From positions 10,727-74,726 of the forward strand of contig CAYOIJ010000003.1 of the NCBI GenBank assembly GCA_964404025.1: a stretch of 64,000 nucleotides of DNA. The letters are read 5' to 3'. Both the position numbers and the translations under genes were made by a program. The DNA is from an uncultured Pseudomonadales bacterium (GTDB lineage Bacteria > Patescibacteriota > Microgenomatia > UBA1400 > PJMF01). Shown here piece by piece: positions 2,042 through 52,512 of this stretch. Under the pieces are notes generated by a model that was given only the letters and a program-made list of their open reading frames with translations, was not told the origin of the DNA and did not search any database. The stretch's first letter is position 1, and each line of letters opens with the position of its first letter.

Positions 2042-2085
2042 ATTAATTAATAATTAAAAACCTCTAATAAATAGAAAGGGTTTTA

Positions 2086-3717: not shown

Positions 3718-3802
3718 TTAGTTGGCTGCTACAAATAAACTAAAAAATTATTAGTTATTTTAAAACTTCTCAATTAAAATAAGAGAAGTCTGGAGTAAAC
3801 TT

Positions 3803-4660
3803 ATGGCTCAGTTAATTGATAGTCGTGCCCTATCAAAAAAAATCCAAAATAAAATTAAAAAAGAAGTAGCTGCCTTAAATTTTAAACCAGGCTTAGCAGT
3901 GCTTTTAGTTGGCAGCGATCCAGCTTCCCAGGTTTATGTAAACAGCAAAGAAAAAGCTTGTAAAAAAGTTGGTTTCTATAGTGAAAAAATTATTTTAGAT
4001 AAAAATATAACACAGGATAAATTGTTAGTTGAAATTAAAAAGCTAAACAATAATCCAAAAATCCACGCTATTTTAGTTCAATTGCCACTACCCAAGCATT
4101 TAGACGAAAAAATCATAATTGATAATATTGACCCGCACAAAGATGTTGATGTTTTTCATCCCTATAATGTTGGTGAACTCTGCTTACAAAAACGCTTACC
4201 CAAACTCAACGACTTACTAGCTCCCTGCACTCCCAAAGGGATCATGAGAATGTTAGAAGAATATAAAATTGATTTAGAAGGTAAAAAAGCGGTGATCATT
4301 GGTCGCAGTAACCTTGTTGGTAAACCTATTGCGCTTATGCTCTTGGCTAGCAACGCCACAGTAGAGATTTGTCATTCCAAAACAAAGAATTTGACTGAAA
4401 CTAGTGCCCAAGCCGATATTGTTATTGCTGCCTTAGGCCAAGCTAATTTTCTTAAGAAAAACATGGTTAAAAAAGGAGCCATAGTGATTGATGTTGGCAT
4501 CAATCGTACTGATCAAGGCTTAACTGGTGATGTTGATTTTACTGAAGTTGAAAAAATTGCCAAATATATCACTCCAGTTCCTGGAGGAGTAGGGCCAATG
4601 ACTATTGCTTGTCTGTTAGAAAACACCCTTTTGCTGGCCAAAAAATACCGCAAGAAATAA
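3803..4660 (+). CDS. folD: bifunctional methylenetetrahydrofolate dehydrogenase / methenyl-THF cyclohydrolase
   Basis: FolD motifs are present: the YVNSKEKAC region, the GRSNLVGKP NADP-binding site and PVPGGVGPMT. Confidence 0.92.
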   Translation: MAQLIDSRALSKKIQNKIKKEVAALNFKPGLAVLLVGSDPASQVYVNSKEKACKKVGFYSEKIILDKNITQDKLLVEIKKLNNNPKIHAILVQLPLPKHLDEKIIIDNIDPHKDVDVFHPYNVGELCLQKRLPKLNDLLAPCTPKGIMRMLEEYKIDLEGKKAVIIGRSNLVGKPIALMLLASNATVEICHSKTKNLTETSAQADIVIAALGQANFLKKNMVKKGAIVIDVGINRTDQGLTGDVDFTEVEKIAKYITPVPGGVGPMTIACLLENTLLLAKKYRKK

Positions 4661-5336: not shown

Positions 5337-5411
5337 GCTTCTGTAGTTTAGTGGATAAAACATTGGTTTCCGGAACCAAAAACGAGGGTTCGATTCCCTC
5401 CAGAAGCACCA
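5337..5411 (+). tRNA. tRNA-Arg (anticodon CCG)
   Basis: Manual fold: 7-bp acceptor GCTTCTG/CAGAAGC, D-arm GTTT..AAAC, anticodon stem TTGGT/ACCAA with loop TTCCGGA, T-arm GAGGG-TTCGATT-CCCTC, discriminator A, and an encoded CCA. Confidence 0.8.
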
Positions 5412-6059: not shown

Positions 6060-6818
6060 GTGAACCCATTGCTGGCGCCACTTATCATTAATGAAGTTTT
6101 TCCTAATCCCAGTGCAGGAAGTGAGTGGGTAGAAATACTGCAACTTGGAGAAAGCCCCATTAACTCTACAGATTACAGTAACTTTACTATCAGTGATGAG
6201 GGGCGTGTTATTTATCAATTTAGTGGAGATGAAAATTGGCTAGGAAAACTTTTACTAATTGAATTATCAGGACTTAATAATGGTGGTGATAGTGTTGTTT
6301 TGAAAAATGCAGAGGGCTTAATCATTGACGAAATGACTTATAGTAGCAGCCAGAAAGACATGAGTTGGTTACGAACTGATACTGAAAACCCATCATTTAT
6401 TCTTGGTAAACCCAGTCCCCTGGCCTTAAATATAACTCCCAGTCCAAGCACTAAGCCTACTCTTACCCCAACTAGTGTTCCTTCCATTACTCCTATTAGT
6501 AATCCTAGTCCAATAATTAGTACCGATCAAAATCAAGAAAATGAGCAAAAACTAAAATTAGAGCAAATAAGTAAGCCGCCAGATAAACAACAAGAAACAC
6601 TTAACAATCAAGATATTTCAGAAAAATACTTTGCTAATTATCAAAACTTTAAAAACTTAAACATTAAGTGTCAAAACAGTCAACATTTTTCTAATTCCCG
6701 TCTAGTTTTTTTGGGGCAAAGAATTCTTAAAACAGCCACTGTCAATGCTATAATAGGAAGTTCTTTATTTATTGTCGCTGCAATTCTATTAAGCTATGAG
6801 CAAAAGCCAAATCACTAG
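6060..6818 (+). CDS. lamin-tail-domain (LTD) protein with a Pro/Thr-rich linker and a C-terminal transmembrane anchor
   Basis: LIINEVFPNPSAGSEWVEILQLG...GDSVVLKNAEGLIIDEMTY matches the LTD fold consensus. It is followed by a TPSPSTKPTLTPTSVPSITP linker and a hydrophobic C-terminal segment, IIGSSLFIVAAILL. It has a GTG start and no N-terminal signal peptide. Confidence 0.55.
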   Translation: MNPLLAPLIINEVFPNPSAGSEWVEILQLGESPINSTDYSNFTISDEGRVIYQFSGDENWLGKLLLIELSGLNNGGDSVVLKNAEGLIIDEMTYSSSQKDMSWLRTDTENPSFILGKPSPLALNITPSPSTKPTLTPTSVPSITPISNPSPIISTDQNQENEQKLKLEQISKPPDKQQETLNNQDISEKYFANYQNFKNLNIKCQNSQHFSNSRLVFLGQRILKTATVNAIIGSSLFIVAAILLSYEQKPNH

Positions 6819-35828: not shown

Positions 35829-36824
35829 TCAACGCAAGTATTGATTTACATTAGCATTGTGACCCTCAAGAGTCTCTGCTATATGAATTTTACCAGATAA
35901 ATCATGGATATAATAAAAGGCGCTTGTTGATTGGGGCGTAAGTACAGCTTCAATCGCTGTCAAACCAGGATTACAAATTGGTGAGGGAGGTAAACCAATC
36001 TTTTGGTAGGTATTAAAAGGCGAATCTAAATTTTTATCTGCTGCAGTGGGAGTGGGCCACCAGTTTTGTTCAGCACTACTATAAGCTTTTATATATTGAA
36101 GCGTTGCATCAACCTGTAGGGGCATTCCAATATCTAATCGATTGAATAAAATACCAGCAATTAGTGGCATCTCAGCATCATTAGCACTTTCTCTTTGCAC
36201 CAAAGAAGCGAGGGTCAAAATTTGCTTTAAGCTTAATTCGCTATTATTGATATCATCATCTAAAACTAGAAGTACTTTATTTTCAAAAGTGTTGTGTAAA
36301 AGATTAAGCAAAGCCTCAGCACTAATACTTTTTGATACTAAATAGGTGTCTGGAAACAATTGTCCCTCTAAGCCACTGCTTAGCTTAAGAAAATTTTCCT
36401 CATCAAAAGCATTTAGGTCTTGTTTAGATAAGCTTGTCGCTATTTCTTCACGCCGCCAACCTTCTGGAATAGTAATCCATAAATCATCAGTTCCTTTAGT
36501 TAAAGATTGAGCCAACTCCCAAGTTGATGAGCTTGGTGAAAGCTTGAATGAGCCTGCTTGAATTTTATTTTGTAAGCCTCTTTGGTAAACCACTCCACGG
36601 AAAACTAAGCCAGAACGAACTAAACCTGCCTGGCGAAGCCGTTGAGCAATTTGCTGAGTTGCCTGTCCCTTGGGAACGACAAAGGTGATAGTTGTTCGAT
36701 CACTGCTGTCCACTGGTCTTAATAAAGATAATACAGTTACAGAGACGGAAATAGAAATAAGCAAAACAGCAAGTAAAATAACTCTAACAAATTTGAAATT
36801 TTTTTTAGAACTTGGGAGTGGCAT
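35829..36824 (-). CDS. mltG: endolytic murein transglycosylase MltG/YceG family
   Basis: It has an N-terminal TM anchor and YceG-like sequence (...GLPPSPICNPGLTAIEAVL...). It shows the conserved alaS-ruvX-mltG neighbourhood. Confidence 0.8.
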   Translation of the reverse strand: MPLPSSKKNFKFVRVILLAVLLISISVSVTVLSLLRPVDSSDRTTITFVVPKGQATQQIAQRLRQAGLVRSGLVFRGVVYQRGLQNKIQAGSFKLSPSSSTWELAQSLTKGTDDLWITIPEGWRREEIATSLSKQDLNAFDEENFLKLSSGLEGQLFPDTYLVSKSISAEALLNLLHNTFENKVLLVLDDDINNSELSLKQILTLASLVQRESANDAEMPLIAGILFNRLDIGMPLQVDATLQYIKAYSSAEQNWWPTPTAADKNLDSPFNTYQKIGLPPSPICNPGLTAIEAVLTPQSTSAFYYIHDLSGKIHIAETLEGHNANVNQYLR

Positions 36825-36843
36825 AATAATGAAGAATCCTAGT

Positions 36844-37245
36844 CTAGCATAAATCTAAATAGTTTTCGAGAATAAGTGCAGCAGCATAATGATCAATGGC
36901 TTGGCGTCTATTTTTTTTTGGCAGGTCTTTAAGCTTTTCTTCAACCTCATAAGATGAAAGCGTTTCGTCTGCCATAACAATCTCAACATCCAATAAAGAT
37001 TTTAGATAATTAAAAAACTTTATCGTTTGCTCTGCCATCTTAGATTCAGAAAGCCCAATAACAATTTTCTCTACTTTTTCTTTTTGGATAACTGCCTGTA
37101 TTTCTTCGAGAGCTCGAGGACCAATAGGCAATTCATGACCGAGCAAATCATTTTTTATTACTTTGAGAGGTTCAACTAAACCCACAAAAGAAATAGCTAA
37201 GCCAATCCTTGCTAAACCATAATCAATTGCTAAAATTGTTGGCAT
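36844..37245 (-). CDS. ruvX: putative pre-16S rRNA nuclease / Holliday-junction-resolvase-like YqgF (RuvX)
   Basis: MPTILAIDYGLARIGLAIS, a RuvC-like fold with an N-terminal catalytic Asp; 133 aa. Confidence 0.8.
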   Translation of the reverse strand: MPTILAIDYGLARIGLAISFVGLVEPLKVIKNDLLGHELPIGPRALEEIQAVIQKEKVEKIVIGLSESKMAEQTIKFFNYLKSLLDVEIVMADETLSSYEVEEKLKDLPKKNRRQAIDHYAAALILENYLDLC

Positions 37246-37260
37246 TTCTACTAGATTATA

Positions 37261-38217
37261 CTAGTCTTTTATTAATTGTGCTGTTACTACCCCGCGACGT
37301 AAAGTAGTCCCCTCAGGAGTACAAGTCACTAACTTCAACTGACGCACATCGTAGCGTTGAGCTAAAATAAAGGTGTCATCTGGCTTAACCTCTGTCTTGC
37401 TTTGCACAATGTAAGTATATTTAACATTATCATGAGTTAAATATATTTTTTCTCCTCTTTCCAGCAACATAATTTTGCTAAAAATAGAAGTATAGCGACG
37501 AGGGTTATTTTCACTAGGATTGTAGAATTGACGCAAAACAGAATGGCCAAAAAGCACTGGTGAACCCAATTGTCCTGGTAGACCAGTACCAGGATAATGA
37601 ATTAAGCTCTGGTTAAGATCTGTGCCTCCAACCCTTACTTTCGCATTAGTAATATTTAAACTAGGAATATCTAAAGTATATTCAATAAATTCACTTTTAT
37701 TTAATTCTGGAACATCGAGCTCACTACTAAACCAATTACTTAAGTCAGTAAAATCAAGAGCCTGATCTAAAATGACTGGTCCATTTTCAGCACTCTTATT
37801 TGCCTGGCTTTCTTCAAGATCGACCTGAGCTTGAGCGGAAATAAGAGGCGTACTAAGTAATAATTGGGAGTGTGGAACCGGGGACAATAAGGCTAATTTT
37901 TCTTGTTTATTCCAGGGTAAATAATATTCTATCAGAGGCCAAAGCGCAGATAAGGCTAGAACTAAGCCAAAAGCTATTAATGCCAAAGGTAATAAAGTTG
38001 CCCCAAATCTAATTCTTCTTGGCAAACGTCGCCAAAAATTTAATTTAATTTGTTTGTCCAAAACCTGTTCTTCTTTACGACTAACAACGTCTTGTTTTAA
38101 AAAATAATTAACTTTTTTATTCAAATCTTGAATAGCCACCCCTTCCTTGAGAGCTTGACGGTAAAGCTTTAGAATTTGCTTTTTTTGCAGAGATGGTTGG
38201 GAATCTTTTTTGGCCAT
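37261..38217 (-). CDS. sortase-family transpeptidase (membrane-anchored)
   Basis: It has one TM helix. The catalytic His is in LFGHSVL, the catalytic Cys is in the TLxTC-like LKLVTCTPEG, and Arg follows (RRGVV). It lies 5 nt downstream of the 747-aa gene. Confidence 0.75.
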   Translation of the reverse strand: MAKKDSQPSLQKKQILKLYRQALKEGVAIQDLNKKVNYFLKQDVVSRKEEQVLDKQIKLNFWRRLPRRIRFGATLLPLALIAFGLVLALSALWPLIEYYLPWNKQEKLALLSPVPHSQLLLSTPLISAQAQVDLEESQANKSAENGPVILDQALDFTDLSNWFSSELDVPELNKSEFIEYTLDIPSLNITNAKVRVGGTDLNQSLIHYPGTGLPGQLGSPVLFGHSVLRQFYNPSENNPRRYTSIFSKIMLLERGEKIYLTHDNVKYTYIVQSKTEVKPDDTFILAQRYDVRQLKLVTCTPEGTTLRRGVVTAQLIKD

Positions 38218-38222
38218 AGGAA

Positions 38223-40466
38223 TTAATTAATAACAAAATTAAAACGAGCAGTGTTTTTTGGTAACTTTTGCACTAGCTTGGACAAAAATTCTGGTTGATA
38301 TACTATTTCTGCTTTGCTTATTAATTCTTGGTCTTCTAGATTATTTTCTGCTTCTTCAATGCTCTTGCCAACTAATAAGTCTGTCAACGACTCTTCATCA
38401 ATATTTGCTCTAGATTTAGCTGATAACTCTGTACTTAAAATTAAACGATTACTGTCATCTTCAGTCGGAACAGCTCGATCGCTTAGTAGTGATGGCTCTT
38501 CATCAACAAATTCATAATTTTCTGGCAGATCCATAAGCAAAACTGCTCGCGCCAACTGTTTCAAGTCACTAGATAAATATTTGACGGCCTCAACTTCTAA
38601 ATTCATTTTTAAAGAAAGAGTTTCCACCTCGTCTCCCTCTTCGTGATCATATTCAAAAAAAGTAATACGACTCTTATCACTTGCTACAAAATAAACACCA
38701 TCTCTAGACTCTTCAGCAAACTCATCTTTAGCAATTTCGTTTAAACTTGTTCTTAATTGACTCAGTAAATTTTCTAAATCCTCTTTGGAAACCACTCTCA
38801 CCTCTCTACTAGAACCACCAGAAAAATTTTCAAGAGCAGTAGCTGAATAGGTATCTTCACTAAAATCTGCAACTTTTAATTTACTATCTTTTTCAATATT
38901 GGCGTCTGCTCCTATGTCTTTAGCAACCACCATCGCTTCTTTACTCCCATAATTCATTCCAGCACCACCCTCTTCTTCTTCAGCAGCAGCTACTATTACT
39001 TCTTCCTCAAATTCAAACAAAACACCCTCGTGCTCCAAAGTTGTACTAGCAGCAAAAGTTTTTTCACTAGAAGTCTTATTAAATAATTTAATCTTTCCCT
39101 TAGCTTTTTCTCCTACTAAACTAATACCAGTTGTACTTAAGCTGTCTTCACCGCTAATTTCTTTTTTTACTAATGACGCTTTGAGTAAATTTTTATTATA
39201 ATCAGATTCTGCTAGTTGAGGATCAAGAATGATATCGAGATTTTTTTGCAGTATTTGTTCGTCCGCTTTAATTCTGACTGTTATATTCGATAAGAAAAAA
39301 CTAAAAATAAGTAGAATAATCGTTAGAGCTAATAGACCGCTGCTAACTCCAATTATTAATGATTTACGATTTTTTCTTAAAAAACGAGCTAAAGGAGTCA
39401 TTTTTTTTATTTTTTCTGGGTTTTTTGTTAATACGGGTTTAACAACTTGATGATTTACTTGATCGGGATTAAATTCTTTCAATTCTTCAGATTTAAAATC
39501 AGTGAATTGAGCTCTATTATTCTCTTCATCCGCCTTGACTTTATCAGAAGCGAAATCAATACCAAAACTACTAATTTTTTGCTCTTCACTCTTTACCTCA
39601 ACTTCATTTGCTAAATTATTTTCCAGATCAGTACCTTTTTCAACACCATGAACTATGCTTAAATCCTGATCAAGTTTAGATCTGAAGTCAGTTGATAGCA
39701 TATGACTGGCTGCTAAACTTAGAGACTTAATTAAAAAGTCTATTTCTAAAACTACAAATTGTGGTGCTTGTAAAAAACCACTGACTTTTGTCCAATCAAA
39801 GGCTTGCAGTTGTGACTGCTCCTTTTTTAAAGATTTTTGACTAAGATTTAATGAGGTCAGAAAAAGTTTGTTGGGAAAATATTTGCCCTGTTCTCCTAGC
39901 TCTTGGCTAACTCTTGCTAAACCCTCTTGTAAATCGTCAGTCAATTTTGCTGATCTACCAACTCGAAGATTAAGTAATAATTGACCATGTTTAATCAAAA
40001 TTAAATCAAAATCTCGCTCACGCAAATAGATAGTGAGGGAAGAGTCACGAGGATCATTAATAATCCGAGATCTATGAATTCCCTCACTTACACTCATTTG
40101 TCCCAAAGCAGATAGGCTTAAACTTTCTGATAATTCTTGAACTATGACTTTTTTACTATCTAATAATTCACCATCTTTCAACCAAGACTCATCAAAAATA
40201 AAAACACAATCTGCTACTTCGTCTGCTAATAATCCCAAGTCTTGTAGTGACTGGTCGAGTTGAATTAACAAATCTTGACGATCAAAATAAGTTTTAATTG
40301 CAGAATACTCTTTAATTTCTTGCTTCTTATTAACTAAAGCGCTCTGCAACTCTTGATCACTTAAAATGATAGAAATAAATAATTCCTCATGATTAAGGTT
40401 CTCAGTTAGATCATGATGCTTCTTTTCTTTTTTTCTCTGAGTAAATTTTTTCAATAAATTGGGCAT
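38223..40466 (-). CDS. uncharacterised 747-aa bitopic membrane protein. It has a ~370-aa cytoplasmic N-domain, one TM helix, and a ~350-aa acidic extracytoplasmic C-domain. It is the first gene of the sortase operon.
   Basis: The single hydrophobic segment is LIIGVSSGLLALTIILLIFSFFL at ~aa 372-394, after a basic stretch KNRKS. The N-domain has a weak actin-fold/PilM-FtsA-like feel (LILIKHGQLLLNLRVGRSAKLTDDLQEGLARV), but no recognisable motif could be confirmed by eye. Confidence 0.5.
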   Translation of the reverse strand: MPNLLKKFTQRKKEKKHHDLTENLNHEELFISIILSDQELQSALVNKKQEIKEYSAIKTYFDRQDLLIQLDQSLQDLGLLADEVADCVFIFDESWLKDGELLDSKKVIVQELSESLSLSALGQMSVSEGIHRSRIINDPRDSSLTIYLRERDFDLILIKHGQLLLNLRVGRSAKLTDDLQEGLARVSQELGEQGKYFPNKLFLTSLNLSQKSLKKEQSQLQAFDWTKVSGFLQAPQFVVLEIDFLIKSLSLAASHMLSTDFRSKLDQDLSIVHGVEKGTDLENNLANEVEVKSEEQKISSFGIDFASDKVKADEENNRAQFTDFKSEELKEFNPDQVNHQVVKPVLTKNPEKIKKMTPLARFLRKNRKSLIIGVSSGLLALTIILLIFSFFLSNITVRIKADEQILQKNLDIILDPQLAESDYNKNLLKASLVKKEISGEDSLSTTGISLVGEKAKGKIKLFNKTSSEKTFAASTTLEHEGVLFEFEEEVIVAAAEEEEGGAGMNYGSKEAMVVAKDIGADANIEKDSKLKVADFSEDTYSATALENFSGGSSREVRVVSKEDLENLLSQLRTSLNEIAKDEFAEESRDGVYFVASDKSRITFFEYDHEEGDEVETLSLKMNLEVEAVKYLSSDLKQLARAVLLMDLPENYEFVDEEPSLLSDRAVPTEDDSNRLILSTELSAKSRANIDEESLTDLLVGKSIEEAENNLEDQELISKAEIVYQPEFLSKLVQKLPKNTARFNFVIN

Positions 40467-40558
40467 ATTTTTTGAATAGTAAAAGACTGGGTTAAATTAA
40501 ACCCTCACTTATATTAAAGCAGAGTTTCAGTTAATTTTGAAGAACTGAGTGCTTGTTA

Positions 40559-42463
40559 TTATCTGAAACGAATATAGATCCGTCTAATTCCTTGAGCTAT
40601 AGCCTGTTCTTTAAAAATTTCCAATTCTCCAAGACGAGCTATTTGCGAGGTGTGCTCGACGTGAGGTCCGCCACAAAGCTCCTTTGATATCCAATTTTGC
40701 TTATCACCAATAGTATAAACTTTTACTTTTTGTGGATAACGTTCAGCAAAAAAAGCAATTGCACCAGACGCTAGAGCCTCTTCTTTAGACATTGTTTCGC
40801 TAGACACCTGCAGATCATCTTCAAGCCACTGATTTAATAATTTTTCTATTGATTTGAGTTGCTCATCACTAAGTGATTGATGATAACTAAAGTCGAAACG
40901 AAGGCGATCACTACTAATGTTCGAGCCTTTTTGCTGTACTTCATTACCCAAAATTTTTCTTAGAGCAGCTTGCAGCAGGTGAGTAGCTGTATGAAAAGCA
41001 GTGGTTTTGGCATCTTGATCAGCCAAACCTCCTTTGAATTTTTTCTGAGTAGTCTGCCGAGATAATTGCGCATGTTGGCTGCGTTTTTCAACAATTTTAT
41101 TTTCAATTTGATCTTCAAGTGCAATATTCCTTGAATTAGCCTCTTCAATGGATAATTCAAAAGGAAAGCCATAGCTCTCATACAGTCTAAAGGCTAGTTC
41201 AGCTGTTAATTGATCTTTATTTGCTATTAAACGATTAAACTCTTTTAAACCTCTGATCAAAGTTCTATTGAATTTTTGCTCTTCAGTTCTTAAAACATTG
41301 CTAATCAAATCTTTTTTCTTTAATAAGTCAGGATAAAAATCTTGATAAAGTGCCAATATGTCTGGCACGATTTCCGTCACAAAATTTTCTTTTAAATCTA
41401 GATGTCGAGCCTGCCTCAAAGATCGTCTAACTAAACGACGTAACAAATAGCCTTGTTCTTTATTGCTAGGCAAAACTCCATCACCAATTAACATCACGCT
41501 GGCACGAATATGATCAGCAATAATACGAAAAGCCGGCTTATACTGTGAATTTTGATATTCTTTAGCACTCAATTTAACTAGTTTATTAATAATGTTTGAA
41601 AAAGCACTGGTTTGAAAAATATCTACCTGGTTTTCTACTGCTGCTAATAATCGCTCTAAGCCTCCACCAAAATCAATATTTTTTTGCTCTAATTCTTTAA
41701 AACCGTCTTGATCACGCTGATATTGCATAAATACACTGTTACCGATTTCTAGGAAACGACCACAGTCACAATTAATGTGGCAAGGCTGACTGGCAAACTT
41801 AGAATGTTGGTGGATGTCAACATTAGACTCAGAATCAGTGAAATCATAGAAAACCTCACTGTCTGGCCCACCCAATTCACCAATAGGCATTTTGGATGGT
41901 GCACCAGACCTTGACCACCAATTTTTCTCTTCATCATAGAAAAATATTCGACCTCCTTGTAGTCCCAATTGAGGCCTATCAATAATTTTAGCTTCAACAC
42001 CTCTCTCTTGGAATAATTTTTGCCAAATGTTTGCTGATTCATTGTCTTTGGGAATATTAAGTTCTTTCTTGCCTGCAAAAACTGATACATAAAGACGCTC
42101 TGGCTTTAGCTTGAGAACATCAACTAAAAATTCAAAACAAAAATTAATTTGCTCTTTTTTAAAGTAGTCACCAAACGACCAATTGCCCAACATTTCAAAA
42201 AAAGTTGTATGACGATTGTCACCCACTTCTTCAATATCTTCACTGCGAAAACATTTTTGTGAATTAACTATTTTTTTACCAAGAGGATGATTTTGGCCAA
42301 AAAAATAAGGAATCATTGCTTGCATACCAGCACTGGTAAATAAGGTCGTCGGATCATTTTCTGGCACTAAACTTGCTGAAGGTACAATAACGTGACCCTT
42401 AGCAATAAAAAAATCTAAGTATAAGCGACGTAAACTAGATAAGGTTAAAGAAGAATGAGACAT
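40559..42463 (-). CDS. alaS: alanine--tRNA ligase, short form of 634 aa. It lacks the C-terminal C-Ala domain.
   Basis: The N-terminus is LYLDFFIAKGHVIVPSASLVPENDPTTLFTSAGMQ. The editing-domain motifs HTATHLL and CGGPHV are present, and the protein ends shortly after them. Confidence 0.88.
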   Translation of the reverse strand: MSHSSLTLSSLRRLYLDFFIAKGHVIVPSASLVPENDPTTLFTSAGMQAMIPYFFGQNHPLGKKIVNSQKCFRSEDIEEVGDNRHTTFFEMLGNWSFGDYFKKEQINFCFEFLVDVLKLKPERLYVSVFAGKKELNIPKDNESANIWQKLFQERGVEAKIIDRPQLGLQGGRIFFYDEEKNWWSRSGAPSKMPIGELGGPDSEVFYDFTDSESNVDIHQHSKFASQPCHINCDCGRFLEIGNSVFMQYQRDQDGFKELEQKNIDFGGGLERLLAAVENQVDIFQTSAFSNIINKLVKLSAKEYQNSQYKPAFRIIADHIRASVMLIGDGVLPSNKEQGYLLRRLVRRSLRQARHLDLKENFVTEIVPDILALYQDFYPDLLKKKDLISNVLRTEEQKFNRTLIRGLKEFNRLIANKDQLTAELAFRLYESYGFPFELSIEEANSRNIALEDQIENKIVEKRSQHAQLSRQTTQKKFKGGLADQDAKTTAFHTATHLLQAALRKILGNEVQQKGSNISSDRLRFDFSYHQSLSDEQLKSIEKLLNQWLEDDLQVSSETMSKEEALASGAIAFFAERYPQKVKVYTIGDKQNWISKELCGGPHVEHTSQIARLGELEIFKEQAIAQGIRRIYIRFR

Positions 42464-42485: not shown

Positions 42486-42842
42486 CTAAATACCTTTAAA
42501 TTGATTCTTTTTTTCTTGTCTTCGTAAACGCTTGCGTGTTTTTTCTTTATTCTTTGATCTCTCTAGCTTTGATAAAACTAAAGATAAATTATTCTTAAAT
42601 TCAAATAGAGAGTTCTTAAGTTGTGAGTAATATCTATCTTTTACTTCTTCTAAAGATAGGTTTGGATTATCAATCAAATTTTTTTTATATAAATCAAGAC
42701 GAGCAGCTTCCCAATCTTTCGCTAACTTTTTCCAGGTTTTCTGGCCTTGTTCACTAGAAAAATAAGTAATGACACTACCTAAAGAAAACCCTATAGCTAA
42801 ACCCGATAAAAAGCCATTAGCTTGCTGCTTATCTTCTGTCAT
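42486..42842 (-). CDS. YtxH-like small membrane or stress protein
   Basis: The N-terminal GFLSGLAIGFSLGSVITYF motif is typical of YtxH (DUF948-partner) proteins. It has a basic coiled-coil C-terminus. Confidence 0.45.
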   Translation of the reverse strand: MTEDKQQANGFLSGLAIGFSLGSVITYFSSEQGQKTWKKLAKDWEAARLDLYKKNLIDNPNLSLEEVKDRYYSQLKNSLFEFKNNLSLVLSKLERSKNKEKTRKRLRRQEKKNQFKGI

Positions 42843-42845
42843 TTT

Positions 42846-43181
42846 TTATTTTTTCTTTTTGCTTAATGGGCTTTGATCCTGTTTTTTTGAATCGTCCTCA
42901 CGATGACGATTTAACCAAGCCATAAAACCTTCGGTTACTTTTAAACCAGCAGTAAAATTAGTAATAAAAGCACTTAAACTATGAAAAGGATTAAGGATGC
43001 CTTCAATTTTGTTTTGAGTTGTATCAACTACTTGATTGGCTTTATCAATAACTTGATTAAATTTTTGTAAAGAATGCTTGATCTGACTCAAAACCATAAT
43101 TAGCTTGATAGCTAATATAACTAGTACCACAGTTAAACTAGCAACAGAAATAGTTAGAACTAAGGGTAAAATCTCTGACAT
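42846..43181 (-). CDS. DUF948 (YtxG)-like membrane protein
   Basis: It has an N-terminal TM helix and then a coiled coil (QKFNQVIDKANQVVDTTQNKIEGIL). It is adjacent to the YtxH-like gene, as in Firmicute ytxGH. Confidence 0.45.
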   Translation of the reverse strand: MSEILPLVLTISVASLTVVLVILAIKLIMVLSQIKHSLQKFNQVIDKANQVVDTTQNKIEGILNPFHSLSAFITNFTAGLKVTEGFMAWLNRHREDDSKKQDQSPLSKKKK

Positions 43182-43250
43182 AATTGGCTTTCTTGTTAAT
43201 TAAGATCATTCTACGACAAGGAGGGCCAATTTGCCAGTTGTGCTAAAAAT

Positions 43251-43934
43251 TTAATAATCAATCTGAATGGTTCGCTGAACGACACTTGTTTTACCTCGCT
43301 CATCAGTCGCTTTAATTGTAATAGTGGTCGGTCCTTCAATATCATAATAAAGCTCGGTGTTAAAAAAACCACCCGCCTGCAATGCTACAGGCTGTGCATT
43401 TACTAAAACACTGGCATTCATTATTGTTTGGCCTTCAACTACTACTCTGGCTGCGCTAATATCACCATCTTTTGGTTGGAACACTTCTAGACGCGGTGGC
43501 CTGCTTAAAGAATACCATTGCCAGGCCGCATAAGTTAAAAAAATTAAAAAAACACTGCTAATAAACAGGATGGTTAAACGCACCGGAGAAAATAAATTTG
43601 TTTTCTTAAAAGAATCGCGTAGAAATTCTCTGGGCAATAGGCGCCCCTTAGCACTTTCTTGGTAATCTCTGCGCAAGATCGCTAATAAAGGTCTTGGATT
43701 AACTCCAAGTAATTTAGCATAATTGCTAATGTAGGCTTTGGCATAACTAGCATTTGGTAAAATAGCAAAATCATTTTTTTCAATTGCCTGAAGATAACTC
43801 AGCTTGATAAAAGTGCTGTCCGCAATATCTTTCAACTCTAAACCAGCTGCTTTTCGATGTTTAATCAACAAATCACCTACAGTTTGCGTTTTAATCGTTT
43901 GACTCATTAGGCCAATTCTAGAAAGAATTCTCAA
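43251..43934 (-). CDS. RodZ-like cytoskeleton-associated protein (N-terminal HTH, TM, C-terminal beta domain)
   Basis: It has an XRE-like HTH (TVGDLLIKHRKAAGLELKDIADSTFIKLSYLQAIEKN), a single TM helix, and a C-terminal DUF4115-like region. Confidence 0.6.
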   Translation of the reverse strand: MRILSRIGLMSQTIKTQTVGDLLIKHRKAAGLELKDIADSTFIKLSYLQAIEKNDFAILPNASYAKAYISNYAKLLGVNPRPLLAILRRDYQESAKGRLLPREFLRDSFKKTNLFSPVRLTILFISSVFLIFLTYAAWQWYSLSRPPRLEVFQPKDGDISAARVVVEGQTIMNASVLVNAQPVALQAGGFFNTELYYDIEGPTTITIKATDERGKTSVVQRTIQIDY

Positions 43935-43952
43935 TCAAAGCAAGTTCTAAAC

Positions 43953-44387
43953 TCAATTTTTTAAAGTTTTTTTGAGTACAGCCGCAATTCGAGATCCATC
44001 AGCTTGAGCAGCTAATTTTTTAGTTATTTGACCCATTAAAGGACCAAAATCCTTTACGCTGCTTTCAGCAATGAACTCTTCAATAAATTTTTCCAAATCT
44101 TCATCACTCATTTGTTTGGGTAAATAACTTTCCAAAGCCTTAATTTTACTCTCAGTCTCACTAATTAAATCTTGACGATCAGCCTTTTTAAAATCTTCAA
44201 GCGCATCTAGTTGCTGATTGAGCATTTTTTTAATTATTTTCTGTACTGTTAAATCATCAGCCACTCCATGATCAATTTCAAAATTTTTAATTTCACTACG
44301 AATTAAGCGAATAATCCCTAGACGATCGGCATCTTTAGCCCTCATAGCTGTTTTCATCTCTTCCATCAATTGTTCTTGCAGTGTCAT
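43953..44387 (-). CDS. GatB/YqeY domain protein
   Basis: It is a 144-aa all-helical protein. The motifs RLIRSEIKN and LESYLPKQMSDEDL match the YqeY family. Confidence 0.7.
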   Translation of the reverse strand: MTLQEQLMEEMKTAMRAKDADRLGIIRLIRSEIKNFEIDHGVADDLTVQKIIKKMLNQQLDALEDFKKADRQDLISETESKIKALESYLPKQMSDEDLEKFIEEFIAESSVKDFGPLMGQITKKLAAQADGSRIAAVLKKTLKN

Positions 44388-44404: not shown

Positions 44405-44481
44405 TGGTGGACAATACTGGACTCGAACCAGTGACCTCACGAATGTGAATCGTGCGCTCTAACCAGCTGAGCTAATTGTCC
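44405..44481 (-). tRNA. tRNA-Val (anticodon CAC)
   Basis: Manual fold of the reverse complement: acceptor GGACAAT/ATTGTCC, D-arm GCTC-AGCTGGTTA-GAGC, anticodon stem CACGA/TCGTG with loop TTCACAT, T-arm ACTGG-TTCGAGT-CCAGT, and an encoded CCA. Confidence 0.8.
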
Positions 44482-45315: not shown

Positions 45316-45717
45316 GGGGATGTATTGTATTGACGTCAGTCAACTTTAATCATAGCAGATCATCTTTGGTGAAAAGATGTTAAAAAACACTAAAAAATAA
45401 CTGTCAAAAACAGTTTTAAAACAGCAGTTAATAAAGTCGCCAGTCTTTTTGACTTCGGCTTCGTAGCTGCTCCTGCTTTTGCTTAATTGTAAAAGTAGGC
45501 ATCTAGTGTTGAACTCTTATCGACGGTTCACATTAGGTGAAAACCTAGTCGATTAACAGAAATAAAGAATCAGGTCGCTTTGTTTCTAAGAATTAGGCCT
45601 GGATGAAGCAAAAAAAGTTTGTCTATTCACTTCTTGCTTCAAATCAAAAATAAACTAAATCTGTAGACATCGTTAAAGTCAGATTAGCGGACGCGGGAGC
45701 AAAACCCGCCATCTCCA
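45316..45717 (+). ncRNA. ssrA: transfer-messenger RNA (tmRNA, SsrA)
   Basis: The 5' GGGGATG pairs with the 3' CATCTCC to form a 7-bp acceptor stem with G3:U70. The 3' tRNA-like end GGAC-GCGGG-AGCAAAA-CCCGC-CATCTCC-A matches the E. coli GGAC-GGGGG-UUCAAAU-CCCCC-CGCCUCC-A architecture. The 5' D-analog is ATTGTATTGACG. An internal tag reading frame follows AGTC, from the GCC resume codon at 45439 to the TAA at 45484-45486, encoding ASLFDFGFVAAPAFA. The CCA is not encoded; the sequence reads A-CAA. Confidence 0.7.
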
Positions 45718-45745
45718 CAAAAATAAATATTTATCTGAAAATTAG

Positions 45746-46231
45746 TTAGTTTTTGAATTTAAGGCTTAGACCTAAGCCAAGCGCTAATATCCCTAAAGCA
45801 AAAATTATAATTGTATTCTCTAGAGCACCTGATTCTGGCAGAGTTGTTTTCGCAGAGGGGGTACTCATGCTAGCCACTTCTGACACATTCACGACTAAAT
45901 CTAGTGATTCGCCAGCAGAACTAACTACCAAATTATTGTTCCCGTAAGCAACATCGCTAAAATTAACCCCCCAACTACCCAAAGAATCAGCGGCAGTATT
46001 ATTGTTCAAATCCCCAAGCGCTACTCGCACCTCAGCTGAAGGAGAAGCAGTTCCTCTGACGGTAAAGCTTGTTAGGGTAGTATCATAAGTTTTCACTGTA
46101 GATCCCAAACCCACAATTGAATCGTTACCTCCTATGGCATCAATCGTAAGAGCGCTGGCAAACACTGGTTTAATCAAAACAAGAGATAAAAACAAAAAAA
46201 ATAATAGGGCAATTTTTGTGATTTTTTTCAT
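45746..46231 (-). CDS. small secreted surface protein with a C-terminal LPESG sortase sorting signal (paralog A)
   Basis: Signal peptide MKKITKIALLFFLFLSLVLIKPVFA. The C-terminus is TTLPESG-ALENTIIIFALGILALGLGLSL-KFKN: motif, hydrophobic segment, then a basic tail. Confidence 0.7.
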   Translation of the reverse strand: MKKITKIALLFFLFLSLVLIKPVFASALTIDAIGGNDSIVGLGSTVKTYDTTLTSFTVRGTASPSAEVRVALGDLNNNTAADSLGSWGVNFSDVAYGNNNLVVSSAGESLDLVVNVSEVASMSTPSAKTTLPESGALENTIIIFALGILALGLGLSLKFKN

Positions 46232-51993: not shown

Positions 51994-52512
51994 CTAAAAT
52001 TGCTTTGCTTGAAGTGCGAAGCCCAAACCAATACTAAGCATAGCTAAAGCCAAGAATATAATAGTCGTAGTAGTTGAACCAGCTTGTGGCAAAGTTCCAT
52101 CCGAAGCACTGGCTATTGCTTCTGTTGATGCTGTTGACCCTGTTGCTTCAGTACTATCACCAATAGTTAAAACAAAATCTAGTGTTTCTGCTCCAGATTC
52201 TAAATTAAACTGATGCCTGCCCTCAGTTAATGATGACACCAAATTAGTCCAACCCCCCTCTGCATCAGCTGTCGCAGTTTGTGTTGAATCATCAATTAAA
52301 ATTGATACGGTGGCCGAAGGAGAAGCTAAACCTGTTAATTCAAATGTGCCACCAGAATAAGTGTAGTTCTTTAAACTGCCTCCTAGATCTAGTCCCGAGA
52401 CATCTATGGGTCCTAAGCCCGTAATCTTTAAAGAAGCAGCCGAAACTTTTTTGACAAAAAGCAAGGGAAAGAGAAGTAATAAAAGTACAGTGCTAATAAA
52501 AAATTTTTTCAT
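51994..52512 (-). CDS. small secreted surface protein with a C-terminal LPQAG sortase sorting signal (paralog B)
   Basis: Signal peptide MKKFFISTVLLLLLFPLLFVKKVSA. The C-terminus is GTLPQAG-STTTTIIFLALAMLSIGLGFAL-QAKQF. It shares blocks with paralog A (GLASPSATV / GTASPSAEV; ETLDFVL / ESLDLVV). Confidence 0.7.
   Translation of the reverse strand: MKKFFISTVLLLLLFPLLFVKKVSAASLKITGLGPIDVSGLDLGGSLKNYTYSGGTFELTGLASPSATVSILIDDSTQTATADAEGGWTNLVSSLTEGRHQFNLESGAETLDFVLTIGDSTEATGSTASTEAIASASDGTLPQAGSTTTTIIFLALAMLSIGLGFALQAKQF

What the first reader, a model, noticed from the sequence alone, without database searches (positions are those of the whole stretch)
35829..40466. A sortase and a 747-aa membrane protein are inserted into the conserved alaS-ruvX-mltG neighbourhood
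alaS, yqgF/ruvX and mltG/yceG are near-universal neighbours in bacteria, for example B. subtilis alaS-yrrK-yrrL. Here two extra genes sit between alaS and ruvX on the same strand with gaps of 5 and 15 nt, implying co-transcription. One is a membrane-anchored sortase with His in LFGHS and Cys in LVTCTP. The other is an uncharacterised 747-aa bitopic protein. This puts a surface-protein anchoring enzyme in the same likely operon as a murein transglycosylase and a large novel membrane scaffold. Together with the two LPxxG proteins elsewhere in the window, it looks like a compact cell-surface display module that has not been described for this kind of organism.
Basis: partly seen in the sequence, partly recalled or inferred. 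Interest (0 to 1): 0.6.

Follow-up and report, generated by a model that had tools for sequence, protein, structure and literature searches.

The report
Fused FtsA-like/baseplate-like membrane protein plus sortase
In this ultra-small (CPR, Pacebacteria-like) bacterium, two genes that are separate in related lineages, an FtsA-like cytoskeletal protein and a membrane protein with a phage-baseplate-like outer domain, are fused into one 747-aa protein that is always followed directly by a sortase gene; this is a conserved but uncharacterised cell-envelope gene pair.

Summary
On the minus strand the order is alaS, a 747-aa gene, a sortase, ruvX, mltG, with gaps of 92, 5, 15 and 19 nt. The sortase has an invariant His225/Cys299/Arg308 triad.

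The 747-aa protein has four parts:
- an FtsA/PilM-like actin-fold cytoplasmic domain that has lost its nucleotide-binding motifs;
- a disordered linker with an invariant [SD][FL]G motif;
- one transmembrane helix;
- an outer domain equivalent to a whole phage Baseplate_J/gp47 wedge protein.

In other lineages the same slot between alaS and ruvX holds two separate, closely spaced or overlapping genes: an FtsA-like protein with intact ATP motifs, and a membrane protein with the Baseplate_J-like outer domain. Those lineages have no sortase there (80 metagenome loci plus other examples). The large protein is therefore a Microgenomates-specific fusion, and it predates the sortase at this position.

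In the fused lineage the sortase follows immediately in 71 of 71 loci (median gap 1 nt). Sortases and sortase-motif proteins in CPR bacteria are already reported.

The most likely function is a trans-membrane scaffold for wall growth or division, made together with a housekeeping-type sortase. That function is inferred, not shown. Novelty: an undescribed domain architecture and gene pairing of known kinds.

The parts
40559..42463 (-). alaS, short-form alanyl-tRNA synthetase (634 aa). It is the upstream anchor of the conserved neighbourhood.
   Evidence: PF01411 4.8e-120 plus tRNA_SAD. NF002436 scores 646.8 bits against a cutoff of 529.
40467..40558 (-). 92-nt spacer between alaS and the 747-aa gene. 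It holds one weak hairpin with a poor T-run at 40504..40489.
   Evidence: The number of terminator-like sites in the region is no higher than in shuffled sequence (6 found, 5.0 expected). No Rfam family matches here.
38223..40466 (-). Gene for the 747-aa fusion protein: FtsA-like domain, linker, transmembrane helix and Baseplate_J-like outer domain.
   Evidence: ORF. The protein itself has no Pfam or NCBIfam hit. AlphaFold2 model: mean pLDDT 78.7, with both folded domains at about 88. 52 full-length homologues were found. The N-domain family has 1499 representatives of 50%-identity clusters.
39696..40385 (-). Residues 28-257: cytoplasmic actin-like (ASKHA) domain of FtsA/PilM type. It is reduced in size and has lost its nucleotide-binding motifs.
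   Evidence: - Domain-only model: pLDDT 89, pTM 0.82.
- Foldseek places it in the ASKHA fold generally, TM-score about 0.55.
- The N-domain profile scores 24.8 and 22.8 bits against the separate FtsA-like genes of L077 and L076. The best of all PDB sequences scores 15.1 bits.
- The phosphate-1, phosphate-2 and adenosine positions carry no conserved Asp or Gly.
39399..39695 (-). Residues 258-356: disordered acidic/Ser-rich cytoplasmic linker. It contains an invariant short motif, SFGIDF (residues 300-305, bases 39552..39569).
   Evidence: pLDDT is below 50 for residues 260-356. G302 is invariant, F301 is F or L in 41 of 42 sequences, and S300 is S or D in 34 of 42.
39291..39359 (-). Residues 370-392: the single transmembrane helix. 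It is preceded by RFLRKNRK, which puts the N-terminus inside the cell.
   Evidence: It is the only hydrophobic window in the protein. The model predicts a helix at residues 367-391.
38226..39287 (-). Residues 394-747: extracytoplasmic domain equivalent to a complete phage or tailocin Baseplate_J/gp47 wedge protein.
   Evidence: - PF04865 matches 31 of 42 family members, best E-value 9.5e-8.
- The family profile matches diffocin TRI-2 (8v3w_E) at E=0.0063, and Mu gp47 more weakly at E=1.7.
- Foldseek against BFVD finds many 'Baseplate J-like' phage proteins at probability 1.0 over about 320-450 columns.
37261..38217 (-). Membrane-anchored sortase (318 aa). It has a 70-aa cytoplasmic N-terminal tail, a transmembrane segment at residues 71-96 (37930..38007), a linker, and a catalytic domain at residues 182-315 (37273..37674). 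Catalytic residues: His225 at 37543..37545, Cys299 at 37321..37323, Arg308 at 37294..37296.
   Evidence: PF04203 1.2e-18. The triad is invariant. No class A-F NCBIfam model reaches its cutoff: best class scores are C 36.3, E 33.2 and D 31.1-32.4 bits, against cutoffs of 140-166. PDB sequence hits are only 28 bits or less. 924 homologues were found, named 'sortase [Candidatus Pacebacteria]'.
36844..37245 (-). ruvX/yqgF (133 aa).
   Evidence: PF03652 4.5e-24; TIGR00250 49.7 bits against a cutoff of 43.25.
35829..36824 (-). mltG/yceG endolytic transglycosylase (331 aa, N-terminal transmembrane segment).
   Evidence: PF02618 3.7e-74; TIGR00247 184.3 bits against a cutoff of 103.4.
42486..44387 (-). 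Conserved upstream block, in transcription order: yqeY (43953..44387), a RodZ-like protein with HTH_25, a transmembrane segment and an Ig-like domain (43251..43934), a DUF948-like 111-aa protein (42846..43181), and a 118-aa small protein (42486..42842).
   Evidence: Pfam hits. The same order is kept in most of the 72 related loci.
45746..46231 (-). Candidate sortase substrate 1 (161 aa): signal peptide, one Ig-like domain, LPESG, a transmembrane segment, and a KFKN tail.
   Evidence: Gram_pos_anchor scores 18.8 bits, just below the cutoff of 20. An orthologue with LPESG is present in L008.
51994..52512 (-). Candidate sortase substrate 2 (172 aa): signal peptide, one Ig-like domain (weak Big_13 hit), LPQAG, a transmembrane segment, and a QAKQF tail. 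It is a paralogue of substrate 1.
   Evidence: It is 32% identical to substrate 1, E=4e-21.

Best explanation
What it is (shown). The 747-aa gene is a lineage-specific fusion of two older genes.
- In other lineages the slot between alaS and ruvX holds two separate genes that nearly abut or overlap. The first is a divergent FtsA-like actin-fold protein with intact ATP-binding motifs. The second is a bitopic membrane protein with a small cytoplasmic head, a linker, a transmembrane helix and an outer domain homologous to a phage Baseplate_J/gp47 wedge protein.
- These lineages are a large group of unidentified organisms sampled by 80 metagenome contigs plus L077, and the organism of L078/L079. 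Dojkabacteria have the same gene pair in a different neighbourhood.
- In Microgenomates (Pacebacteria, Woesebacteria and relatives) the two are one polypeptide. The actin-like part is cut down to about 230 residues and has lost its nucleotide-binding residues.
- In that lineage a sortase gene sits directly behind the fusion, often overlapping it by 1 or 4 nt.

How it most likely works (inferred).
- The protein is a nucleotide-independent trans-membrane scaffold of the wall-growth or division machinery.
- Its FtsA-like domain and the invariant [SD][FL]G linker motif would engage cytoplasmic partners, as FtsA, PilM and GspL do.
- Its Baseplate_J-like domain would oligomerise or bind on the wall side.
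- The sortase shares its N-in/C-out topology, is made with it from one transcript, and is probably positioned by it at sites of new peptidoglycan. There it would attach LPxxG Ig-like surface proteins to lipid II, next to the glycan-strand terminase MltG.
For: Fold and domains:
- Baseplate_J is detected at sequence level in 31 of 42 members and against PDB TRI-2. Foldseek against BFVD agrees.
- The models are confident for each domain.

Fusion:
- L078/L079: alaS, then a 405-aa FtsA/PilM_2-like gene with DIGS, DIGGE and GGGA motifs, then a 524-aa Baseplate_J-like (BJ) membrane protein (29% identical to window residues 388-746), then ruvX.
- L077: FtsA-like (TIGR01174 2.9e-31), then BJ, ruvX, mltG.
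- Dojkabacteria L076: FtsA-like, then BJ.
- 80 metagenome loci have alaS, FtsA-like, BJ, ruvX, mltG and no sortase.
- The N-domain profile matches those FtsA-like genes at 24.8 and 22.8 bits in three collinear segments, including the shared W-x5-F-x3-P motif. No PDB ASKHA protein exceeds 15.1 bits.

Pseudo-ATPase: there is no conserved Asp or Gly at the phosphate-binding loops, and the GGG motif is lost.

Coupling to the sortase:
- The sortase is the next gene in 71 of 71 fused-form loci, with a median gap of 1 nt and many -4 or -1 overlaps.
- This holds down to 20-25% identity of the large protein.

Envelope context: FtsK, a RodZ-like protein, small membrane proteins and MltG are conserved in the same block.

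Sortase and substrates: the sortase looks competent and candidate substrates exist.
Against: - No experiment or transcript data. Function is inferred from fold, fusion and synteny only.
- The FtsA assignment is not unique. Foldseek ranks ROK, PPX and EutJ proteins as high as PilM and FtsA. The direct sequence link to FtsA in the PDB is marginal (E=0.096). hhalign of the N-domain profile against the single L078 FtsA-like sequence gave probability 1.5%.
- The split form works without any adjacent sortase, so the scaffold-sortase link may be a lineage-specific add-on or mere co-expression.
- The LPxxG genes are not linked to the operon beyond the closest relative.
- I could not determine whether these genomes also carry a canonical ftsA next to ftsZ.
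- No known Baseplate_J protein is extracytoplasmic and anchored by its own transmembrane helix, so the role of the wall-side domain is a guess.
Confidence: 0.5

Rival explanations
1. One reading: a sortase-centred surface-display module. The 747-aa protein exists to serve the sortase, as a dedicated docking or assembly platform. Together with the LPxxG proteins and MltG it forms one compact display system.
For: The sortase strictly and immediately follows the large gene in 71 of 71 fused-form loci. Both proteins have the same membrane topology. Two LPxxG Ig-like proteins are present in the window.
Against: The two halves of the large protein occupy the same genomic slot in lineages with no sortase nearby: 80 metagenome loci plus L077, L078/L079 and L080/L081, and the Dojkabacteria pair in L076 lies elsewhere in the genome. 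Its core function therefore cannot depend on the sortase. The LPxxG genes are 5 and 11.5 kb away and are not syntenic in more distant genomes. The sortase has no class C pilus-sortase features: it has no C-terminal transmembrane segment, and the class C model scores 36 bits against a cutoff of 160.
Confidence: 0.15
2. A GspL/PilM-PilN-type platform of a pilus or secretion machine. In this view the cytoplasmic actin-like domain docks an assembly ATPase, and the outer domain aligns a filament or channel.
Against: No PilB, PilC, PilN, PilO or pilin genes lie anywhere in the conserved neighbourhood. The outer domain is Baseplate_J-like, not PilN- or GspL-like. In a complete Microgenomates genome the type IV pilus genes, including their own pilM, are reported at a single separate locus (PMC7143001). 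The split-form partner scores better against FtsA than against PilM: 2.9e-31 versus 1.7e-13, and 1.1e-20 versus 9.9e-11.
Confidence: 0.1
3. An operon of convenience. The large protein and the sortase are unrelated housekeeping envelope proteins that share a strongly expressed, conserved transcription unit, with no physical or functional coupling.
For: alaS, ruvX and mltG have no known functional link either, yet they stay together (my own knowledge; synteny). CPR genomes are compact, with almost all genes on one strand here. Other genes, such as PYNP and an acyltransferase, are inserted between ruvX and mltG in some genomes.
Against: Insertions occur between ruvX and mltG but never between the large gene and the sortase in 71 loci. 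Start and stop overlaps of 1 or 4 nt are frequent, which suggests translational coupling. The fusion state and the presence of the sortase coincide perfectly in the sample: 71 of 71 fused-form loci have it and none of the split-form loci do. That could, however, simply reflect shared ancestry.
Confidence: 0.2
4. A remnant of a prophage or tailocin. In this view the Baseplate_J-like domain marks degraded phage DNA rather than a cellular gene.
For: The C-domain is homologous to phage and tailocin baseplate wedge proteins.
Against: The gene sits in a housekeeping block (alaS, ruvX, mltG, rpoBC, ribosomal proteins) that is conserved in at least 72 species. It has no sheath, tube, gp25-like or other phage genes nearby. 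It has no relative in 2.9 million viral contigs. Its base composition is the same as the surroundings. The family has about 1500 representatives of 50%-identity clusters, nearly all with the same 700-800 aa architecture.
Confidence: 0.02

Closest known systems
FtsA (divisome membrane tether; TIGR01174, PF14450)
   Different: The fused protein gets no FtsA HMM hit. It is about 230 residues rather than about 400, with no room for a 1C subdomain. Its ATP-binding motifs are lost. It is anchored by a true transmembrane helix joined to a large outer domain, not by a C-terminal amphipathic helix. It is not next to ftsZ.
GspL and PilM-PilN (inner-membrane platform proteins of type II secretion and type IV pili)
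   Different: The outer domain is Baseplate_J-like, not the ferredoxin-like PilN/GspL domain. No pilus or secretion genes are nearby. There are no GspL or PilM_2 HMM hits.
Baseplate_J / gp47 / T4 gp6 / diffocin TRI-2 / T6SS TssF (baseplate wedge proteins of contractile injection systems)
   Same: The C-terminal 355 residues match over the length of a whole wedge protein, by both sequence profile and structure.
   Different: This is a cellular housekeeping gene. The domain is predicted to be outside the cytoplasmic membrane and covalently tethered by a transmembrane helix. It has no sheath, tube or spike partners and is absent from viral contigs.
Housekeeping sortases (class A/E type) of monoderm bacteria; the CPR sortase family of Meheust et al. 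2019 (fam000526)
   Same: It has an N-terminal membrane anchor, a His-Cys-Arg triad, a TCxP active-site motif, and candidate LPxxG substrates with a transmembrane segment and a basic tail. Sortases are reported as near ubiquitous in Microgenomates (PMC6744442).
   Different: It reaches no class A-F model cutoff. In Pacebacteria it carries a conserved 70-aa cytoplasmic N-terminal extension that the Woesebacteria-type 230-aa sortases lack. Its fixed, probably translationally coupled position behind the fusion protein was not described in any paper I could find.
The alaS-ruvX(yqgF)-mltG(yceG) neighbourhood of Firmicutes (B. subtilis alaS-yrzL-yrrK-yrzB-yrrL; my own knowledge)
   Same: The three anchor genes have the same order and strand.
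   Different: Here, and across the sampled CPR-type lineages, the space between alaS and ruvX is filled by the FtsA-like/Baseplate_J-like pair or its fusion, and in Microgenomates also by a sortase. In Firmicutes that space holds the small gene yrzL.

Membership tests
Sortase (PF04203, MEROPS C60) | The sortase domain HMM scores above the curated cutoff. | tested here: met
   67.5 bits against a cutoff of 26.6, covering residues 182-315.
Sortase (PF04203, MEROPS C60) | A conserved catalytic His-Cys-Arg triad. | tested here: met
   H225, C299 and R308 are invariant in 25 sequences down to 26% identity.
Sortase (PF04203, MEROPS C60) | Substrates with a C-terminal sorting signal (LPxTG-like motif, hydrophobic segment, basic tail) in the same genome. 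| tested here: met
   Two proteins in the window carry LPESG and LPQAG. Their Gram_pos_anchor hits (18.8 and 15.2 bits) fall just below the cutoff of 20. Actual cleavage was not tested.
Sortase classes A-F (NCBIfam NF033745-8, NF058671) | A class model scores above its cutoff. | tested here: not met
   Best scores: class C 36.3 against a cutoff of 160, class E 33.2 against 160, class D 31.1 against 165 and 32.4 against 140, class F 15.8 against 166. The sortase belongs to an unclassified CPR clade.
FtsA (TIGR01174 / PF14450) | A match to the family HMM. | tested here: not met
   No Pfam or NCBIfam hit for the 747-aa protein or its N-domain. The N-domain profile against S. aureus FtsA gives only E=0.096.
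FtsA (TIGR01174 / PF14450) | An actin-like fold closest to FtsA/PilM. | tested here: met
   [not shown]
FtsA (TIGR01174 / PF14450) | ATP-binding phosphate-1, phosphate-2 and adenosine motifs. | tested here: not met
   The positions aligned to DIGS, DxGGG and GGGA carry no conserved Asp or Gly in 42 sequences.
FtsA (TIGR01174 / PF14450) | A C-terminal amphipathic membrane-targeting helix, and binding of the FtsZ C-terminal peptide. | not testable with these tools
   Membrane attachment here is by a transmembrane helix. FtsZ binding cannot be tested computationally with the tools available.
GspL / PilM-PilN platform proteins | The architecture: a cytoplasmic actin-like domain, one transmembrane helix and an outer domain. 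| tested here: met
GspL / PilM-PilN platform proteins | An outer domain of PilN/GspL type, and a gene cluster containing PilB/C/O or Gsp genes. | tested here: not met
   The outer domain is Baseplate_J-like. No pilus or secretion genes are present in the conserved block.
Baseplate_J (PF04865) wedge proteins | Sequence and structural homology to gp47, gpJ or TRI-2. | tested here: met
   [not shown]
Baseplate_J (PF04865) wedge proteins | Part of a contractile-tail or T6SS gene set (sheath, tube, gp25-like, spike). | tested here: not met
   The neighbourhood is housekeeping only. There is no relative in viral contigs.

The most novel reading that the evidence does not exclude
In Microgenomates the ordinary FtsA-type membrane tether has been replaced or supplemented by a membrane-integrated, nucleotide-free FtsA derivative. 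This derivative is covalently joined to a domesticated phage-baseplate wedge domain on the wall side. The protein would assemble into a ring-like trans-envelope structure at the division or growth site and recruit a dedicated sortase. That would be a previously unknown kind of divisome or elongasome anchor, linking the cytoskeleton directly to surface-protein anchoring in bacteria of the Candidate Phyla Radiation.
Probability: 0.15. Interest if true: 0.8.

Novelty: new variant of a known kind. Interest (0 to 1): 0.55.

Why it matters
How CPR/Patescibacteria build and divide their envelopes is essentially unknown, and most of their lineage-specific membrane proteins have no annotation.

This analysis gives three things:
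- It assigns folds and an evolutionary origin to a large 'hypothetical' family. The family has about 1500 representatives of 50%-identity clusters and was found in all 72 related species-level genomes retrieved.
- It identifies a gene-fusion (Rosetta-stone) argument that a divergent FtsA-like protein and a Baseplate_J-like membrane protein work together across several CPR-type lineages.
- It shows that the CPR sortase at this locus is fixed behind this scaffold in every sampled genome that has the fusion.

The split form may be present in cultivable CPR lineages, which was not checked here. If so, the pair is directly testable by existing transposon or knock-out genetics. It would also be an example of a phage baseplate module taken over for a cellular, extracytoplasmic role.

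Tried and rejected
1. The C-terminal 'LPKNT' of the 747-aa protein as a hidden sorting signal. Rejected: no hydrophobic segment follows it. The same [LV]P-x4-[KR]I terminal strand is also conserved in split-form proteins of lineages without a sortase.
2. Prophage or tailocin origin. Rejected.
3. The type IV pilus PilM role. No supporting context was found, and it conflicts with PMC7143001.
4. A regulatory RNA or strong terminator in the 92-nt alaS-747 gap. No Rfam hit. Only one weak hairpin is present, and the count is no higher than in shuffled sequence.
5. A second FtsA-like gene in the window. tblastn with three FtsA-like queries found nothing below E=0.7. The window is only 64 kb, so this says little about the whole genome.
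6. Searches that added nothing or failed:
   - The profile search with A1 returned essentially the same set of proteins.
   - The listing of cluster members gave no organism names.
   - Alignments A1 and A5 were too divergent for pattern scans.
   - The afdb50 library was not available.
   - hhalign of the N-domain profile against a single FtsA-like sequence was uninformative, probability 1.5%.
7. Synteny of the LPxxG genes. They are conserved only in the closest relative, L008.
8. Literature searches for baseplate J plus Patescibacteria or CPR, baseplate J plus sortase, and FtsA plus Microgenomates found no description of this family.

Full report
**1.

ORF listing and family scans show the following order on the minus strand:
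- alaS 42463..40559
- a 747-aa ORF 40466..38223
- a 318-aa sortase 38217..37261
- ruvX 37245..36844
- mltG/yceG 36824..35829
- rpoB and rpoC

The intergenic gaps are 92, 5, 15, 19 and 261 nt. The window has 36% G+C. Almost every gene from 7.6 kb onwards is on the minus strand. Protein names attached to homologues place it in Candidatus Pacebacteria, in the Microgenomates group of the Candidate Phyla Radiation (CPR).

**2. The sortase**

- PF04203 scores 67.5 bits against a cutoff of 26.6.
- His225 (in LFGHS), Cys299 (in LVTCTP) and Arg308 are invariant in 25 sequences, including Woesebacteria-type sortases only 26-37% identical.
- A single hydrophobic segment (residues 71-96) follows RRLPRRIR. 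The N-terminal 70 residues are therefore cytoplasmic and the catalytic domain is outside.
- None of the NCBIfam class A-F models comes near its cutoff. PDB sortases match at 28 bits or less. It belongs to an unclassified CPR clade.
- Sortases in CPR bacteria are not new. Meheust et al. 2019 found a sortase family in more than half of CPR genomes and 'near ubiquitous in Microgenomates' (PMC6744442). Genome papers on a Microgenomates member, on Peregrinibacteria and on a Parcubacterium mention sortases or surface proteins with sortase motifs.

**3. Candidate substrates**

A scan of all window ORFs for a C-terminal motif followed by a hydrophobic segment and a basic tail found two real genes:
- 45746..46231, with LPESG
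- 51994..52512, with LPQAG

They are 32% identical paralogues. Each has a signal peptide, one Ig-like domain and a near-threshold Gram_pos_anchor hit. Only the closest relative (L008) keeps one of them in place. They are plausible substrates but not part of the operon.

**4. Domain structure of the 747-aa protein**

The protein itself has no Pfam or NCBIfam hit. An AlphaFold2 model built on 42 homologues has two confident domains separated by a disordered stretch (residues 260-356) and one long helix (367-391).

N-terminal domain (residues 28-257):
- It has the beta-beta-beta-alpha-beta-alpha-beta-alpha x 2 actin-like topology.
- A domain-only model is better still, with pLDDT 89 and pTM 0.82.
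- Foldseek confirms the ASKHA fold but does not single out FtsA or PilM.

C-terminal domain (residues 394-747):
- It is homologous to a whole Baseplate_J/gp47 wedge protein.
- 31 of 42 family members hit PF04865.
- The family profile hits diffocin TRI-2 at E=0.0063.
- Foldseek against viral models lists many 'Baseplate J-like' proteins at probability 1.0 over 320-450 columns.

Topology: residues 370-392 are the only hydrophobic segment, and RFLRKNRK precedes them. The actin-like domain is therefore cytoplasmic and the Baseplate_J-like domain is outside.

**5. The actin-like domain has lost its nucleotide site**

The family was aligned to S. aureus FtsA and to the FtsA-like genes described in section 6. 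In all 42 sequences the positions of the phosphate-1 (DIGS), phosphate-2 (DxGGGTTD) and adenosine (GGGA) motifs carry no conserved Asp or Gly. What is invariant instead is:
- a W-x5-F-x3-P motif at the end of the domain;
- a Gly within a [SD][FL]G[IFV] motif in the otherwise disordered linker. This looks like a short binding motif.

**6. The key finding: the protein is a gene fusion**

More distant homologues of the C-terminal half are shorter (524-657 aa). They have only a small cytoplasmic head of about 70 aa before the linker and transmembrane helix. Directly upstream of them lies a separate FtsA-like gene of 405-424 aa with intact DIGS/DVGT, DxGGxTT and GGGA motifs. It hits FtsA best, then PilM.

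The gene orders (BJ = the Baseplate_J-like membrane protein) are:
- L078/L079: alaS, FtsA-like, BJ, ruvX
- L077: FtsA-like, BJ, ruvX, mltG, LysM/CHAP
- Dojkabacteria L076: AAA, FtsA-like, BJ, GroES/GroEL
- L080, from a 67.5% G+C organism: alaS (long form), BJ, ruvX, with no FtsA-like gene

A metagenome scan with the three FtsA-like proteins returned 80 loci, the best of 526, at 76-85% identity to the L077 protein. Every locus with enough flanking DNA shows alaS, FtsA-like, BJ, ruvX, mltG, with no sortase.

The N-domain profile of the fused family matches the L077 and L076 FtsA-like proteins at 24.8 and 22.8 bits. The match is in three collinear segments that include the W..F..P motif. The best of all 177,635 PDB sequences, which include hundreds of actin-fold proteins, reaches only 15.1 bits.

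The gene order is the same as the domain order. In the split form the two genes overlap by 4 nt (L078) or are 3 nt apart (L077). The simplest reading is that Microgenomates fused the FtsA-like gene to its downstream membrane partner, with loss of about 170 residues and of nucleotide binding.

**7. Extent of the family and linkage to the sortase**

- The N-domain profile finds 1499 representatives of 50%-identity clusters (926 at E<=1e-30). Most of the top 150 are 700-800 aa long.
- A scan of one genome per GTDB species found 72 loci.
- tblastn with the window's proteins shows the order yqeY, RodZ-like, DUF948, (small protein), alaS, fusion, sortase, ruvX, mltG, rpoB in nearly all of them.
- Exceptions are mainly insertions between ruvX and mltG. 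In one locus (L050) there is a 2-kb gap between the sortase and ruvX.
- In 71 of 71 fused-form loci with downstream sequence, the sortase is the next gene. The median gap is 1 nt, and overlaps of 1 or 4 nt are frequent.
- The pairing holds in Woesebacteria (23% identity), in groundwater lineages and in a locus that lacks alaS (L073).
- No relative exists in 2.9 million viral contigs.
- Rfam finds only a tmRNA and two tRNAs in the window.

**8. Mechanism**

Shown:
- the domain folds;
- the membrane topology (from sequence);
- the fusion;
- the loss of ATP motifs;
- the fixed position of the sortase behind the fusion, often overlapping it;
- a conserved envelope-related neighbourhood (FtsK, RodZ-like, small membrane proteins, MltG).

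Inferred:
- The FtsA-like protein and the Baseplate_J-like membrane protein act as a complex. This is the Rosetta-stone argument from the fusion.
- In Microgenomates the complex became a single nucleotide-independent trans-membrane scaffold, comparable in plan to GspL or PilM-PilN.
- The sortase is co-produced with the scaffold and probably positioned by it where new wall is made, to anchor LPxxG Ig-like proteins.

Because the split form exists without a sortase, the scaffold's primary role cannot be sortase-specific. I put about 0.9 on the structural and evolutionary description and about 0.4-0.5 on the functional model.

**9. Comparison with what is known, and novelty**

- The sortase is a new member of a known kind, already noted in CPR genomics.
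- The large protein resembles FtsA, GspL/PilM-PilN and Baseplate_J/TssF in parts. It fails defining features of each: no FtsA HMM hit and no ATP site; no PilN/GspL outer domain and no pilus genes; no contractile-system partners.
- I found no paper describing this architecture or its pairing with a sortase. The library searched is incomplete.
- I rate it a new variant of a known kind (bitopic actin-fold scaffolds) with an unusual phage-derived outer module.

**10. Limits**

- No transcript, interaction or localisation data were available.
- Whole genomes could not be read, so two things are unknown: whether a canonical ftsA exists elsewhere, and the full set of sortase substrates.
- The taxonomic identity of the split-form lineages is unknown, apart from Dojkabacteria (L076).

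Noticed in passing
window 39552-39569 (residues 300-305 of the 747-aa protein): An invariant Gly within a conserved [SD][FL]G[IFV] motif sits in the middle of an otherwise disordered, poorly conserved cytoplasmic linker. It looks like a short linear binding motif. Its partner is unknown.
   Followed up: partly
window 37261-38217 (N-terminal 70 residues of the sortase, bases about 38008-38217): Pacebacteria-type sortases carry a conserved cytoplasmic N-terminal extension (consensus LLxxYRQAL...). The 230-250-aa Woesebacteria-type sortases at the same genomic position lack it. It might contact the cytoplasmic actin-like domain.
   Followed up: no
L080/L081 (67.5% G+C contigs): A high-G+C organism with a long-form AlaRS has a 656-aa membrane protein with the Baseplate_J-like outer domain directly between alaS and ruvX. 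It has neither an FtsA-like gene nor a sortase there. The gene's position may therefore predate, or extend beyond, the CPR. The organism was not identified.
   Followed up: partly
window 7600-64000 (whole window): Nearly all genes lie on the minus strand, and GC skew is persistently negative (about -0.15). This resembles the strand-composition disparity reported for the complete Microgenomates genome Ch65 (PMC7143001).
   Followed up: no
window 40559-42463: AlaRS is a short form of 634 aa, with a catalytic domain, an editing domain and tRNA_SAD. No Pfam hit corresponds to the C-terminal DHHA1/C-Ala domain. The same short form (589-619 aa) occurs in the other CPR loci, whereas L080 has the long form.
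   Followed up: no
window 45316-45720 (+), 44408-44481 (-), 5337-5408 (+): A tmRNA gene (102 bits) lies between the comF-like gene and the LPESG gene. A tRNA lies immediately upstream of yqeY, at the head of the long minus-strand gene run. A second tRNA is at 5.3 kb.
   Followed up: no
window 43251-43934, 42846-43181, 42486-42842: A RodZ-like protein (HTH_25, a transmembrane segment and a Glucodextran_B-like Ig domain) and two small membrane proteins (one DUF948-like, one 118 aa with no hit) always precede alaS in related genomes. In L001 and L078, FtsK lies just upstream of the RodZ-like gene.
   Followed up: partly
L004 13418-14086: One groundwater lineage has a second, shorter sortase (222 aa, 26% identical) a few genes downstream of mltG, in addition to the one behind the fusion protein.
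   Followed up: no
L005-L076 record titles; L041 = CP011212.1: Many GTDB species-representative records that carry this typical CPR locus are titled 'uncultured Pseudomonadales', 'Vitreimonas sp.' or 'Methylococcaceae'. CP011212.1 is titled 'candidate division TM6', while an 853,053-bp contig of the same length is listed for a sortase cluster (P0111) named Pacebacteria GW2011_GWF2_38_9. These are probably mislabelled or chimeric records.
   Followed up: no
window 698-4660 and 6060-6818: A folate one-carbon trio (SHMT, formate-tetrahydrofolate ligase, FolD) lies on the plus strand at the start of the window. A 252-aa protein with a weak lamin-tail-domain hit is at 6060-6818.
   Followed up: no
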